From a virus (taxonomy: Duplodnaviria; Heunggongvirae; Uroviricota; Caudoviricetes), in the IMG/VR virus record IMGVR_UViG_2663762810_000008: a stretch of DNA of 14,413 nucleotides; one strand, written 5' to 3'. Under the pieces are notes generated by a model. The model did not search any database, was not told where the DNA came from, and was given only the letters and a program-made list of their open reading frames with translations. A program made the translations under genes and the position numbers. Position 1 is the first letter of the stretch; each line of letters begins with the position of its first letter. Below, in pieces: positions 6,190-10,358 of this stretch.

Positions 6190-6489
6190 AAAAATTCCTT
6201 AATACTGATAACTGGGCGCACTATACACACGTTCCTGAAGAAAGCTATAGTTTTTTGATGGGGTTGAAGATGGCTGGATGTCTAAAATAAACATTGCTTC
6301 ATATGTTCAACTATGCGTTAATGATTGCGTCGGTTTGAAGAACAGACGATATACGAAGTAGTTTACTAAAGCAGTTCTCATTTCAGGTGTTATTCACTTA
6401 TTCCTTCTTTGAGTCTCTCCAATTAAGTACGAAGTCGTTTCTGTTATACAAGCCATTTATGCCGAAAGGCTCAAGTTAAGGAATGTAGA

Positions 6490-6705
6490 ATGTCAAATAA
6501 AATGACTGGTTTAGTAAAATGGTTTAACGCTGATAAAGGTTTTGGCTTTATTTCTCCTGTTGATGGTAGTAAAGATGTGTTTGTGCATTTTTCTGCGATT
6601 CAGAATGATAATTTTCGAACCTTATTTGAAGGTCAAAAGGTTACCTTCTCTGTAGAGAGTGGTGCTAAAGGTCCTGCAGCAGCAAATGTCATAATTACTG
6701 ATTAA
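6490..6705 (+). CDS. cspB: Cold-shock protein CspB
   Basis: 71-aa translation [53 protein letters not shown]... carries the RNP1/RNP2 motifs of the cold-shock domain; AAGGAA ribosome-binding site and a long AT-rich 5' leader. Confidence 0.9.
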
Positions 6706-6986
6706 AATTCATAGTTTGTCTGTATACGATAACGAAGAAGGCTGATGCCTGAGTGGAGATACAGACAGAGTGGTGAATATTGGATCTCTTTAATAAATAG
6801 TAAGGAGGTCCAATACATGAAACAATGGCCAGCATATTTGGCAATAACTTAATCAGGAAAAGTATGCTAACCATTGTGGTGAAGTGCAGGTTTGCTGCAT
6901 GAATAGTTTTACAGCAGAAGCTAACTGCTGGCATAGCAAAACAAAGTGCGTAAGTGGATGACTCCCACAAAAAGTACCACAATATT

Positions 6987-7239: not shown

Positions 7240-7457
7240 AGGCTTTTCCTGTATAAATGGCCGTATACAGTACACTAAATATGAAAACATATCTCGTATT
7301 ATTATTTAATATATGATTTTCTTTTAAAATAATTACCCACATTTTTAATGTGTCTGTTTTTTAGCGCCGTTGAGAACAACGTTTGCTATAAAAACTAACC
7401 CATAGACTCCGATCTTTTCAAACATATTGCACCATCTGTGTACATCGGGGTGAGGAT

Positions 7458-7673
7458 ATGAAATCAATGGATAAGTTAACAACAGGTATCGCCTATGGCA
7501 CATCGGCTGGTAATGCTGGTTTCTGGGCATTGCAGTTACTCGATAAAGTAACTCCGTCACAGTGGGCTGCAATCGGTGTGCTGGGTAGTCTGGTTTTTGG
7601 CCTGCTGACGTATCTGACAAACCTTTATTTCAAGATTAAAGAAGACAGGCGTAAGGTTGCGAGAAGAGAGTAA
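7458..7673 (+). CDS. essQ: Phage 21 S-type pinholin (class II holin) with dual-start motif
   Basis: 71-aa translation [71 protein letters not shown] matches the remembered S21 pinholin; two hydrophobic segments; Met1-Lys-Ser-Met4 gives antiholin/holin dual starts; GAGGAT ribosome-binding site. Confidence 0.9.
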
Positions 7674-7677
7674 TCCA

Positions 7678-8229
7678 ATGACACAAGACTATGAACTGGT
7701 TGTGAAAGGAGTCCGCAATTTTGAGAATAAAGTGGCGGTAACTGTAGCCTTACGGGACAAAAAACGCTTTGACGGTGAAATTTTTGACCTGGACATCTCG
7801 CTGGACCGTGTTGAAGGTGCCGCGCTGGAGTTTTATGAGGCAGCAGCCAGAATGAGAATCAGACAGGTATTCCTGGATGTTGCTGCCGGGTTATGTGTAG
7901 GGGATGAGCAGTCGCCGGAAAAGCGCCCCATAATTTTAGAGGCGCAGAATGTGTGGATAACCTACAAAGGAAAGCTACCGGGAAGAATTACTGGTTCTCT
8001 GAAGACGCCACCGACGGCATTGCGGTCAGAAAAAGATGATATTGAATCGCCCATTGAAAAACTGGAGGGCAGCGTCGCTGATCTGAATAAAAAATTGTCG
8101 GTGCTGATCCCTTCTGAAGATGAAAAAAAACGCCGCGATGAGCAGTTTGCGGCGTTTTACGATTATTGCATTGAAGTTACTCGCAGGAATTTTGTGAAGA
8201 TTTTTGAGGAGGGTAAATCTCTTCAGTAA
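7678..8229 (+). CDS. Hypothetical protein between holin and endolysin (possibly YdfR/DUF1327-like, C-terminally extended)
   Basis: ATG at 7678, 4 nt after the holin stop (MTQDYELVVKGVRNFENKV...). The track start at 7657 overlaps the holin and is less likely. Resemblance to the small ydfR-type ORF of Qin-like lysis cassettes is from memory and not verified. Confidence 0.55.
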   Translation: MTQDYELVVKGVRNFENKVAVTVALRDKKRFDGEIFDLDISLDRVEGAALEFYEAAARMRIRQVFLDVAAGLCVGDEQSPEKRPIILEAQNVWITYKGKLPGRITGSLKTPPTALRSEKDDIESPIEKLEGSVADLNKKLSVLIPSEDEKKRRDEQFAAFYDYCIEVTRRNFVKIFEEGKSLQ

Positions 8230-8437
8230 GCTTAATGGCGGACGCTGCAATTAATTCAGGAAGGTCCGCAAGGTCATCTGTCAGTGGATATGATGAAAAA
8301 TCGGCGGCAGTTCTGTTAAGAAGCGCTTTAACTAATTCCTTTTCCTTCTCCGGCAACAAGTTGATTAGAGCTACGACTGCTTGCCTGAGTGCGATTAAAT
8401 CAGCAAAAGTTTGTTTTGGTAGATTTGTGTAATCCAT
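8177..8437 (-). CDS. Hypothetical protein, 86 aa, convergent with and overlapping the 3' end of the preceding ORF
   Basis: ORF MDYTNLPKQTFADLIALRQAVVALINLLPEKEKELVKALL... with a protein-like helical composition; fills an otherwise ~320-bp gap ahead of the endolysin. Start ATG at 8437 (track lists the GTG at 8443). No family recognised. Confidence 0.3.
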   Translation of the reverse strand: MDYTNLPKQTFADLIALRQAVVALINLLPEKEKELVKALLNRTAADFSSYPLTDDLADLPELIAASAIKLTEEIYPPQKSSQNSCE

Positions 8438-8550
8438 AGTCACCTCTGTGTTTATCAGATTGACATCCTCCTCCCGCCAGTGCCCATCACTGGTGAGGTA
8501 AGATTTAACATATCCGGGGATTTGAAGCCGATAAATCCTGATAAATATCC

Positions 8551-9578
<1,028 letters not shown>

Positions 9579-9941
9579 ATTAATATTAAATCGGATTATT
9601 TTTAGCGCTGAATGTGAAATTTAAATAAAAAGGACTCTTCCATGAGTCAAAATCCTTGAAATCTTAAGGGTAAGATAAAAGGTCATTAGACAGAATGACA
9701 CGTTTTATTAATAAATAAAGCTATTGTTTCATTCGTGTGTTTTTCTTTACAAAAGTAATCCTTGCTATGGTTGGTTAATCATGCGTTAATGGTGTTCTGG
9801 TTTGTTACAAAATTATCTGAAGCAGTCATTGTTATAATTTTATTATTTGTACCTCTTGAGATCTCCTTGTTGGTTTTTCTCTCTGATATTTTTTTTCGGA
9901 CCATTCTGCCCAAGGGCTAACTTCTTCAAAAGGTAATAATG

Positions 9942-10154
9942 ATGTCTAACAAAATGACTGGTTTAGTGAAATGGTTTAACCCTGAAAAAGGTTTTGGTTT
10001 CATCACGCCGAAAGATGGTAGCAAAGATGTGTTTGTCCATTTCTCAGTTATTCAGAGCAACGATTTCAAAACGTTAACTGAGAATCAGGAAGTCGAATTT
10101 GGTATTGAGAACGGACCTAAAGGCCCCGCGGCTGTTCATGTAGTGGCACTTTGA
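9942..10154 (+). CDS. cspI: Cold-shock protein CspI
   Basis: Translation [70 protein letters not shown] matches remembered CspI. Tandem ATGs at 9939 and 9942; long AT-rich 5' leader. Confidence 0.9.
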
Positions 10155-10358
10155 GGTAGAAAATATTACAAACCATATTCACTTTAGATGCCCGTGTTGC
10201 CATGGTTCTCAGTATAGAACATCATCTTTTGATGTTTCTGACAGGAATCCTTTCGGGGCAAAATGTATCTTTTGTAAATCAATGATGATTACATTTGATA
10301 ATATTTCACAATACTTAAATGTTAGCCGTCTGTCGTTAGATTTAAGAAAGTGAAAATG

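What the first reader, a model, noticed from the sequence alone, without database searches (positions are those of the whole stretch)
7678..8450. Two convergent, overlapping ORFs inserted between pinholin and endolysin
Holin and endolysin are normally adjacent in S21-type cassettes; here about 870 bp separate them. The interval holds a 184-aa plus-strand ORF starting 4 nt after the holin stop and an 86-aa minus-strand ORF overlapping its 3' end by about 50 bp. The plus-strand protein appears longer than the small ydfR-type ORF I recall at this position, and the antisense ORF is not something I recognise. The arrangement could be cargo riding on late transcription or an antisense-regulated pair.
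Basis: partly seen in the sequence, partly recalled or inferred. Interest (0 to 1): 0.55.

Follow-up and report, generated by a model that had tools for sequence, protein, structure and literature searches.

The report
Backward accessory gene inside phage lysis cassette
Between the hole-forming and wall-degrading genes of an E. coli prophage sit an intact long version of the common ydfR gene and a small backward-facing gene of unknown function with a conserved start region and its own stop signal; this arrangement is a recurring and fairly ordinary kind of prophage cargo.

Summary
The plus-strand ORF runs 7678-8229 (183 aa). The minus-strand ORF runs 8437-8177 (86 aa). Their 3' ends overlap by 53 bp, inside an 877-bp gap between the pinholin and endolysin genes.

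The plus ORF is an intact long-form YdfR/DUF1327 protein. It matches phrog_2091 end to end. RefSeq's "pseudogene" call in CFT073 looks like an artefact.

The minus ORF is a real but narrow orphan family (phrog_2572), found in E. coli, Salmonella and a few metagenome contigs. Three subfamilies share only 41-57% protein identity. They keep the ORF, its ribosome-binding site, in-frame indels and a coding-type substitution pattern (position 3 > 1 > 2).

The minus ORF looks like a self-contained reverse transcription unit. A near-invariant 5' block abuts the endolysin start codon. A conserved GC hairpin plus U8 lies inside ydfR, and its stems encode ydfR's "KRRDE..AA" motif. The unit therefore supplies the last ~35 codons of whatever late gene precedes it. 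In other phages the same 5' block precedes other cargo ORFs.

Best reading: a moron-like accessory gene expressed in the lysogen and silenced by convergent late transcription. That expression pattern is inferred, not shown. Its function is unknown. No fold or family match was found.

Interest is moderate to low.

The parts
7458..7673 (+). essQ, an S21-type class II holin (pinholin) with an MKSM dual-start motif. Context gene.
   Evidence: PF04971, 116 bits. RefSeq annotates it as essQ.
7678..8229 (+). Long-form ydfR (DUF1327), 183 aa, intact late gene.
   Evidence: PF07041, 140.8 bits over residues 1-112. phrog_2091 matches 1-183 of 183. 183-aa homologues are named 'YdfR family protein'. Modular in-frame variants of 169, 176, 211 and 296 aa exist.
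7678..7893 (+). YdfR N-terminal domain, residues 1-72, with a beta-beta-beta-alpha fold.
   Evidence: 82% identical to K-12 YdfR residues 1-73. AF2 model pLDDT is 63-81 here. In K-12, residues 1-72 bind the catalytic half of RNase E (PMC13232886).
7884..8540 (.). Segment that replaces 92 bp of K-12 Qin (mosaic replacement).
   Evidence: blastn break points at 7883 and 8541.
8044..8226 (+). C-terminal helical hairpin of long YdfR (helices 123-143 and 147-182).
   Evidence: AF2 model, pLDDT 54-66. The module recurs in frame in other architectures.
8123..8158 (-). GC hairpin plus U8: the putative intrinsic terminator of the minus-strand unit, embedded in ydfR codons EKKRRDEQFAAFY. Bidirectional in form.
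   Evidence: Sequence found and fold. Present in all 9 sequences of 3 subfamilies. The 8 core pairs are always paired. One pair shows a compensatory GC to AU change.
8177..8229 (.). 53-bp convergent 3' overlap of the two ORFs.
   Evidence: The overlap is 59 bp, in the same phase, in subfamilies B and C.
8177..8437 (-). Small ORF of 86 aa plus stop. Acidic, with three predicted helices. Orphan family phrog_2572 (WP_001306174.1).
   Evidence: AF2 single-sequence model has pLDDT 72 and helices 8-27, 30-48 and 56-74. Codon-position substitution rates run 3 > 1 > 2.
8441..8446 (-). Shine-Dalgarno sequence GAGGTG, five nucleotides before the ATG.
   Evidence: Sequence. An SD (AAGGA) is also present in subfamilies B and C.
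8470..8498 (-). Hairpin in the 5' leader.
   Evidence: Fold z-score -2.4 in the window and in PhiR5_1. A stem is also present in the Salmonella type.
8507..8535 (-). Candidate weak sigma-70 promoter: -35 TTTATC (8535-8530), 17-nt spacer, -10 TATGTT (8512-8507).
   Evidence: Only 7 of 12 consensus matches, but the position is conserved in all three subfamilies. It was not picked up by the consensus scan. This is an inference.
8528..8552 (-). Near-invariant 5' block ATGGATATTTATCAGGATTTATCGG (tandem ATTTATC, period 10) abutting the rrrQ start codon.
   Evidence: Conserved in subfamilies A, B and C, and upstream of different cargo ORFs in L007 and L113.
8551..9084 (+). rrrQ, endolysin with a hydrophobic N-terminal segment (SAR-like). 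Context gene.
   Evidence: PF00959. RefSeq annotates it as rrrQ.

Best explanation
The interval is a mosaic of two things.

(1) An intact long-form ydfR late gene (7678-8229), transcribed with the lysis operon.
- Its N-terminal ~72 residues are the conserved YdfR domain. In K-12 this domain binds the catalytic half of RNase E.
- A poorly ordered linker and a C-terminal helical hairpin follow.

(2) A self-contained accessory-gene unit in the opposite orientation (a 'moron'), spanning roughly 8552 to 8123 on the minus strand. In order it contains:
- a near-invariant control block next to the endolysin start codon, with a weak promoter-like site;
- a leader hairpin;
- a Shine-Dalgarno sequence;
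- an 86-aa acidic three-helix protein;
- a GC hairpin plus U8 terminator.

The terminator and the last 17 codons of the small gene lie inside ydfR. The unit therefore supplies the last ~35 codons of ydfR, and of whatever late gene precedes it in other phages.

Inferred mode of action: the small gene is transcribed from its own promoter while the late operon is silent, that is, in the lysogen. It is shut off when Q-antiterminated late transcription runs through it head-on. The biochemical role of the small protein is unknown. A prophage accessory or regulatory role is the default reading.

Shown here: the anatomy, the conservation, and that the minus strand is protein-coding. Inferred: promoter activity, expression in lysogeny, and silencing by late transcription.
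For: The plus ORF is real and intact:
- DUF1327, 140.8 bits.
- Full-length match to phrog_2091.
- 183-aa homologues at 80-95% identity, and in-frame variants of 169, 176, 211 and 296 aa with swapped N-domain types.

The minus ORF is coding:
- Exhaustive HMMER finds 93-aa and 89-aa relatives at 57% and 41% identity. A profile search adds Salmonella members.
- In-frame indels of 2, 4 and 7 aa.
- An SD is present in all subfamilies.
- Substitution rates run position 3 > 1 > 2 in every inter-subfamily comparison. That is the opposite of what coding on the plus-strand shadow ORF would predict.
- A confident three-helix single-sequence AF2 model.

It is an autonomous unit:
- A hairpin follows the stop codon in all 9 sequences, with U8 in the window, 8 pairs always formed and one compensatory pair.
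- The 23-nt 5' block is more conserved than the ORF itself. It is kept in the Salmonella context, where no endolysin is adjacent.
- The same block precedes different cargo ORFs in L007 and L113.

It is present or absent among relatives:
- K-12 Qin lacks it, with break points at 7883 and 8541.

The overlap is conserved:
- The convergent overlap is kept in three genomic contexts.

Precedent:
- Genes encoded antisense to prophage lytic genes, with their own promoter, are characteristic accessory loci expressed in lysogens (PMC7067206).
Against: - No promoter reaches the consensus threshold. The best candidate matches only 7 of 12 positions.
- No expression data were found.
- GC content is only slightly lower than in the flanks.
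- Constraint on the small ORF is only moderate. Pairwise Nei-Gojobori dN/dS is 0.34-0.61. Among the 80 loci there are about 10 non-synonymous against 7 synonymous polymorphic sites. 7 of 80 IMG/VR copies have ATG changed to ACG, and one has a nonsense codon.
- The U-tract after the hairpin is poor in subfamilies B and C.
- The protein has no match in Pfam, NCBIfam, PADLOC, PDB or BFVD, so nothing points to a function.
Confidence: 0.55

Rival explanations
1. The active product is the minus-strand RNA rather than, or as well as, the protein. It would be made in the lysogen and is fully complementary to the S-ydfR-R late transcript of any incoming phage that carries the same module. It would then destabilise or block that transcript (superinfection exclusion), or damp leaky read-through into the endolysin gene.
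For: - The unit is antisense to the late operon. Its transcript would cover the 3' end of ydfR up to the endolysin start (anatomy).
- The 5' block and the hairpin are more conserved than the protein.
- Protein-level constraint is only moderate.
- Precedent: the antisense RNA STnc6030 in the late genes of prophage BTP1 excludes self-like phage (PMC7067206).
- The hairpin is terminator-like on the plus strand too.
Against: - The ORF, its SD, its length and its in-frame indels are kept across 41-57% protein identity, with a coding-type substitution pattern. A pure RNA function does not explain this.
- No Rfam family matches.
Confidence: 0.17
2. The two products form a functional protein pair. The small acidic protein binds the C-terminal helical hairpin of long YdfR, or of the 73-aa stand-alone partner in Salmonella. 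It would act as antidote or regulator, with the convergent overlap coupling their expression, as in a toxin-antitoxin or lysis-timing switch.
For: - The small ORF always occurs with a partner ending in the same helical module, in three architectures: fused to DUF1327, as a free-standing 73-aa ORF after the spanin gene, and fused to a non-DUF1327 144-aa protein. The overlap phase is conserved.
- The Salmonella 73-aa partner overlaps the stop of the spanin gene, like a genuine late gene.
Against: - Partner similarity between subfamilies is limited to the 31 residues encoded by DNA shared with the small-gene unit (BLASTP E 2e-4).
- The conserved KRRDE..AA motif is the translation of the terminator stems. 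In subfamily C the peptide changes (RHH..VA) while the hairpin is kept.
- Inside the overlap, the most conserved codon class is position 2 of the small ORF, which is position 3 of the partner.
- The helical module also occurs without the small ORF, in L006, L007 and L113.
- Neither protein is hydrophobic or toxin-like.
Confidence: 0.12
3. Nothing functional is here. On this view ydfR is a decayed pseudogene, as RefSeq annotates it in CFT073, and the minus ORF is a chance or shadow ORF carried along in a prophage remnant.
For: - PGAP annotates only 336 nt of ydfR as 'incomplete, missing C-terminus'.
- A phase-locked 65-aa plus-strand ORF (8235-8432) also stays open. Within-subfamily dN/dS cannot tell the two strands apart.
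- Some copies carry start-codon or nonsense mutations or IS3 insertions.
Against: - The 183-aa frame is kept, with full-length family matches, and in viable phages (2H10, PhiR63_1).
- The minus ORF has divergent homologues that keep the SD, start, length and hairpin.
- The substitution pattern favours the minus strand.
Confidence: 0.05

Closest known systems
K-12 Qin prophage YdfR (b1555, 103 aa, DUF1327), located between essQ and rrrQ
   Same: - Same position, directly after the S21-type holin.
- N-terminal 73 residues are 82% identical.
- Same Pfam family.
- In K-12, residues 1-72 bind the RNase E catalytic half and the protein co-purifies with RNA (PMC13232886).
   Different: - From residue ~70 the sequence is replaced. 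The window has 115 residues (linker plus helical hairpin) where K-12 has 34.
- The tight stop/start overlap with rrrQ is lost.
- RNase E binding by the long form has not been tested.
Prophage 'morons': accessory transcription units, for example lambda bor downstream of Rz on the opposite strand (author's own knowledge), and STMMW_20121 of ST64B, which is antisense to lytic genes (PMC7067206)
   Same: - A small gene in reverse orientation within the late region.
- Its own terminator and a conserved upstream region.
- Present in some relatives and absent in others.
   Different: - The unit is nested in the 3' end of a late gene, so the terminator and 17 codons are shared in antisense.
- The promoter is not consensus-like and is untested.
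- The product is cytoplasmic, acidic and of unknown function.
- The same 5' block serves alternative cargo ORFs.
STnc6030, an antisense RNA within BTP1 late genes that mediates superinfection exclusion (PMC7067206)
   Same: A transcript antisense to late genes of its own prophage, expected to be made in the lysogen.
   Different: The unit here contains a conserved, translatable ORF with an SD. No RNA-level activity has been shown.
Type I toxin-antitoxin loci with convergent, 3'-overlapping transcripts, such as par/Fst and TxpA/RatA (author's own knowledge)
   Same: Convergent transcription with overlapping 3' ends around a bidirectional terminator.
   Different: - There is no small hydrophobic toxin.
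- Both partners encode soluble helical proteins.
- The similarity is one of layout only.

Membership tests
YdfR / DUF1327 (PF07041) | Match to the Pfam model above the gathering score | tested here: met
   140.8 bits against a cut-off of 25, over residues 1-112.
YdfR / DUF1327 (PF07041) | Position directly downstream of an S21-type holin in a lambdoid lysis cassette | tested here: met
   The ATG is four nucleotides after the essQ stop. K-12 has the same layout.
YdfR / DUF1327 (PF07041) | N-terminal domain binds the RNase E catalytic half (K-12 property; PMC13232886) | not testable with these tools
   Only 82% identity to the K-12 binding fragment is shown.
Moron (autonomous prophage accessory transcription unit) | Own intrinsic terminator | tested here: met
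   GC hairpin plus U8 at 8158-8123 on the minus strand, conserved in 9 of 9 sequences with one compensatory pair.
Moron (autonomous prophage accessory transcription unit) | Own promoter | tested here: inconclusive
   No site with at least 9 of 12 consensus matches. TTTATC-17-TATGTT is conserved in position inside a near-invariant block. L007 has a perfect TATAAT behind the same block.
Moron (autonomous prophage accessory transcription unit) | Present in some closely related phages and absent in others, with sharp boundaries | tested here: met
   Absent from K-12 Qin with break points at 7883 and 8541. Alternative cargo sits in the same slot in L007 and L113.
Moron (autonomous prophage accessory transcription unit) | Expression from the repressed prophage | not testable with these tools
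   No transcriptome data were found.
Moron (autonomous prophage accessory transcription unit) | Base composition distinct from the flanks | tested here: inconclusive
   GC is 41-46% in the unit, 47-49% in ydfR and 50-57% in rrrQ.
DUF1823 (the label given to this ORF in the PhiR phage records) | Match to PF08853 above the gathering score | tested here: not met
   13.2 bits against a cut-off of 25, E 0.11.
Known anti-phage defence proteins (PADLOC-DB) | Match to any PADLOC model | tested here: not met
   No match for either ORF or for the alternative cargo ORFs.
Type I toxin-antitoxin with 3'-overlapping convergent transcripts | A small hydrophobic membrane toxin opposed by a non-coding antisense RNA | tested here: not met
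   Both products are soluble, charged and helical (sequences; models). The antisense partner encodes a conserved protein.

The most novel reading that the evidence does not exclude
The stretch between ydfR and the endolysin start may be a dedicated cargo port of S21-type lysis cassettes. In this reading a constant reverse-facing control region (tandem ATTTATC block, leader hairpin) drives interchangeable lysogeny-phase genes. The 86-aa protein or its antisense transcript would actively gate the lysis cassette. Possible roles are excluding superinfecting relatives, insulating the SAR endolysin from read-through out of the cold-shock promoters upstream, or neutralising the C-terminal hairpin of the RNase E-binding YdfR until induction.
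Probability: 0.2. Interest if true: 0.65.

Novelty: new member of a known kind. Interest (0 to 1): 0.36.

Why it matters
This corrects an annotation. The long ydfR in CFT073-type prophages is intact, not a pseudogene.

It also defines a small, widespread orphan gene unit, present in about 5% of complete E. coli genomes, including Stx-phage-like prophages of STEC. The unit sits backwards inside a lysis cassette and shares its terminator and 3' codons with a late gene.

The case shows how a moron can donate the C-terminus of a neighbouring protein. An apparently conserved peptide motif (KRRDE..AA) can be the shadow of an RNA hairpin.

If the unit proves to regulate lysis or exclusion, it would bear on Stx-phage release. 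As it stands, it is a tidy example of known prophage mosaicism.

Tried and rejected
- **Within-subfamily dN/dS to decide the coding strand.** This was ambiguous. The plus-strand 65-aa ORF (8235-8432) is wobble-aligned with the minus ORF and scores equally well. The question was resolved with position 1 versus position 2 rates across subfamilies.
- **Fold searches of the small protein.** PDB Foldseek gave one hit at E 9.5. BFVD gave nothing below E 0.85. afdb50 was not available.
- **Sequence and profile searches of the small ORF.** Pfam, NCBIfam, PADLOC and PDB gave nothing. The 'DUF1823' label in GenBank records is below threshold.
- **P0019 (975-aa TPR/CHAT protein) and P0022 from the exhaustive search.** Rejected as repeat-driven hits or junk.
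- **Species-representative genomes.** Only one locus was found, the E. coli representative. The IMG/VR scan returned only near-identical copies.
- **L005 as an apparent 'ydfR without minus ORF'.** It is an IS3 insertion at 8245-8247, not a natural absence.
- **Rfam.** No family matches in the slot. The weak GcvB and ncr1175 hits are noise driven by the terminator.
- **Literature.** Nothing was found on the minus ORF or its accession.

Full report
**Source and observation**

The window is identical to a lambdoid, Qin-like prophage of E. coli CFT073, S88 and APEC O1. The local gene order is cspF, cspB, ynfU, essQ (pinholin, 7458-7673), then the interval in question, then rrrQ (endolysin, 8551-9084), rzpQ and cspI.

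The finding is accurate.
- A 183-aa plus-strand ORF (7678-8229) begins four nucleotides after the holin stop.
- An 86-aa minus-strand ORF (ATG at 8437, stop at 8177-8179) converges on it with a 53-bp overlap.
- Holin and endolysin are 877 bp apart.

The arrangement recurs.
- 266 complete E. coli genomes hold a place covering at least 80% of 7400-8600.
- 296 of 5,426 genomes hold at least 80% of 7990-8470.
- It is also present in the phages 2H10, PhiR63_1, PhiR5_1 and PhiR12_x.

**The plus-strand ORF**

This ORF is a long-form YdfR.
- Residues 1-112 match DUF1327 at 140.8 bits.
- The whole protein matches phrog_2091 from position 1 to 183.
- Public collections hold many 183-aa 'YdfR family proteins' at 80-95% identity, plus length variants of 114-116, 169, 176, 211, 268 and 296 aa.

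Two different N-domain types are found joined to the same C-terminal module, always in frame. This is modular exchange of a coding sequence, not decay. RefSeq's annotation in CFT073, a 336-nt pseudogene 'missing C-terminus', is therefore most likely an artefact of a model built on the short form.

Compared with K-12 Qin, homology runs through 7400-7883 (93.6% identity) and resumes at 8541. Positions 7884-8540 replace 92 bp of K-12, where the ydfR stop overlaps the rrrQ start. The first 73 residues are 82% identical to K-12 YdfR.

A 2026 study found that residues 1-72 of K-12 YdfR bind the catalytic half of RNase E, by two-hybrid and co-purification, and that the protein pulls down RNA (PMC13232886).

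An AlphaFold model built with 18 homologues shows three parts:
- a beta-beta-beta-alpha N-domain (pLDDT 63-81);
- an unstructured stretch, residues 72-127;
- a C-terminal helical hairpin, residues 123-182 (pLDDT 54-66).

**Is the minus-strand ORF a gene?**

A word-indexed search found only close E. coli relatives. An exhaustive HMMER search then found 93-aa and 89-aa proteins at 57% and 41% identity. A profile search added Salmonella members.

Three subfamilies emerge:
- A: E. coli, 86 aa.
- B: Salmonella and metagenomes, 93 aa.
- C: 89-93 aa.

They differ by in-frame indels of 2, 4 and 7 residues. All have a Shine-Dalgarno sequence at the right distance.

Within subfamily A, dN/dS is 0.34-0.61. 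A 65-aa plus-strand ORF (8235-8432) is wobble-aligned with the minus ORF and scores just as well, so that test cannot choose the strand.

A sharper test can. In this phase, codon position 1 of one strand is position 2 of the other. Across every inter-subfamily comparison, rates in the minus frame run position 3 > 1 > 2. For A against C they are 0.52, 0.42 and 0.26. That is the coding signature of the minus strand and the reverse of what the plus-strand shadow ORF predicts.

A single-sequence AlphaFold model gives three clear helices at pLDDT 72.

I conclude that the minus ORF encodes a protein. Constraint on it is only moderate. Among 80 IMG/VR copies there are about 10 non-synonymous and 7 synonymous polymorphic sites. 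Seven copies have ATG changed to ACG, and one has a nonsense codon.

**Anatomy of the minus-strand unit**

Downstream of the stop codon, inside ydfR, lies the sequence AAAACGCCGC-(11 nt)-GCGGCGTTTTTTTT (8158 to 8123 on the minus strand).
- A hairpin occupies the same place in all nine sequences from the three subfamilies.
- Eight core pairs are always formed.
- One pair changes from G-C to A-U in subfamily C by a double substitution.
- A further pair appears as C-G or G-C in some sequences.

With only three lineages the covariation evidence is thin, but the structure is universal. The U-tract is strong in subfamily A and weaker in B and C.

The stems CGCCGC and GCGGCG are read on the plus strand as Arg-Arg and Ala-Ala. 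The most conserved 'motif' of the YdfR C-module, KRRDE..AA, is therefore the translation of this hairpin. In subfamily C the peptide changes (RHH..VA) while the hairpin persists.

Upstream of the ORF is a 23-nt block, ATGGATATTTATCAGGATTTATCGG, at 8552-8528 on the minus strand. It is almost invariant in all subfamilies, even though the proteins are only 41-57% identical. It is retained in the Salmonella context, where no endolysin gene is adjacent. So it belongs to the unit and not merely to the endolysin leader.

Within and just after the block is the site TTTATC-17-TATGTT (8535-8507). It is a weak promoter-like match (7 of 12) whose position is conserved in all three subfamilies. The consensus scan did not report it. 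A leader hairpin follows at 8498-8470.

**Contexts**

The small ORF is always convergent with a partner. The overlap is 53 bp in subfamily A and 59 bp in B and C, in the same phase. The partners differ:
- DUF1327 proteins of 169-243 aa located between holin and endolysin.
- A free-standing 73-aa ORF overlapping the stop of the DUF2514 spanin gene, just before the terminase genes, in Salmonella prophages.
- A 144-aa protein without DUF1327.

This looks at first like a conserved two-gene system. Three observations argue for physical rather than functional coupling.
- Similarity between the A and B partners is limited to 31 residues over the hairpin and the overlap (E 2e-4).
- Inside the overlap, the best-conserved nucleotide class is position 2 of the small ORF, which is position 3 of the partner.
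- The helical module also occurs without the small ORF, in L006, L007 and L113.

The simplest reading is that the reverse unit carries with it the last ~35 codons of whichever late gene lies upstream.

**A cargo slot**

The same 5' block precedes other minus-strand ORFs:
- A 99-aa phrog_1853 protein in L007.
- In Stx1a-converting phages, an unannotated ORF of up to 233 aa that shares the block, the -10-like site and the leader hairpin, and has its own hairpin-T7 terminator.

None of these cargo proteins matches Pfam, PHROG functional categories or PADLOC. The site beside the endolysin start thus behaves as a recurrent insertion slot for reverse-oriented cargo.

**Mechanism**

The best-supported explanation is a moron-like accessory unit. 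It would be transcribed from its own regulated or weak promoter while the late operon is off. It would be terminated at the hairpin inside ydfR. It would be silenced when Q-antiterminated late transcription passes through it head-on.

Genes antisense to prophage lytic genes, with their own promoters, are typical accessory loci expressed in lysogens (PMC7067206).

Expression timing, promoter activity and the role of the protein are inferences. No transcriptome or proteome evidence was found.

There are three rivals:
- An RNA-level role like that of STnc6030, which excludes self-like phage by pairing with late transcripts.
- A true protein pair.
- No function at all.

**Comparison and novelty**

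The plus ORF is a member of a known family and is common. The minus ORF is an orphan family already clustered in PHROGs but undescribed in the literature searched. Its layout fits the known moron category.

Two features appear to be undescribed in the literature I searched:
- It nests in the 3' end of a late gene and shares its terminator and codons with that gene.
- It shares its 5' control block with alternative cargo.

I rate it as a new member of a known kind, with moderate-to-low interest.

Noticed in passing
window 7678-8013 versus 7678-8229 (CFT073 locus C_RS30310): RefSeq annotates ydfR here as a 336-nt pseudogene 'missing C-terminus'. The 183-aa frame is intact and matches phrog_2091 and many 183-aa 'YdfR family proteins' end to end. 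This is probably an annotation artefact. The same call appears in other genomes (L005, L006).
   Followed up: yes
window 8235-8432 (+): A 65-aa plus-strand ORF starts 5 nt after the ydfR stop. It is wobble-aligned antisense to the small gene, stays open in other subfamilies, and gives equally low dN/dS. It has no SD and no family match. Position 1 versus position 2 substitution rates argue it is a shadow ORF.
   Followed up: yes
window 8552-8505 (-): A 15-codon uORF-like frame, [15 protein letters not shown]. Its ATG shares a CATG palindrome with the rrrQ start codon. The start and the stop position are the same in the Salmonella subfamily (MYIYQALSAL.LWLL). It has no SD. It is incompatible with the proposed promoter, which lies inside it. 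Unexplained.
   Followed up: partly
window 8528-8548: Tandem direct repeat ATTTATC(N3)ATTTATC on the minus strand, with a 10-bp period, overlapping the -35-like site. It is near-invariant across subfamilies. The layout resembles sites for OmpR/PhoB-type response regulators, but this is my recollection only and is untested.
   Followed up: no
L113:1736-2437 (-), Stx1a-converting phage Stx1_14040 (LC567819.1): An unannotated minus-strand ORF of up to 233 aa in the same slot. It sits behind the same 5' block and leader hairpin and has its own hairpin-T7 terminator. The annotated 263-aa 'hypothetical protein' on the plus strand reads into it in antisense. It has no Pfam, PHROG or PADLOC match.
   Followed up: partly
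L007:2120-2419 (-) and L007:1450-2118 (+): Another variant of the slot. A 222-aa plus-strand protein lacks DUF1327 but begins with the same helical module. It is followed by a convergent 99-aa phrog_1853 ORF behind the shared 5' block, with a perfect TATAAT.
   Followed up: partly
L005 (insertion point = window 8245-8247); L013: IS3-family insertions interrupt the small gene or ydfR in some STEC genomes.
   Followed up: partly
IMG/VR loci L033-L112: Among 80 near-identical copies of the small gene, 7 have the start ATG changed to ACG, 1 has a Q19 nonsense codon, and 4 have a different 3' end (overlap of 21 bp). This suggests the gene is dispensable in some prophages.
   Followed up: partly
window 6329-6768 and 9795-10200 (+): Two cspA-type thermoregulator RNA elements (RF01766, 156 and 117 bits) lie upstream of cspB and cspI and flank the lysis cassette. 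cspB points toward the cassette, so cold-induced read-through into essQ-ydfR is conceivable. PMC13232886 notes cold-stress up-regulation of these genes in K-12.
   Followed up: no
window 9232-9528 (+), inside rzpQ: An embedded ORF in a different frame has a lipobox-like LTSC. It resembles the o-spanin rzoQ annotated in K-12 but is not annotated in the CFT073 record.
   Followed up: no
L017 (Salmonella enterica contig): A remnant of the unit. Only the first ~26 codons of the small ORF and its 5' region remain, fused to the antisense of a 139-aa DUF1327 gene. ParDE-like and HicAB toxin-antitoxin pairs are nearby in the same prophage.
   Followed up: no
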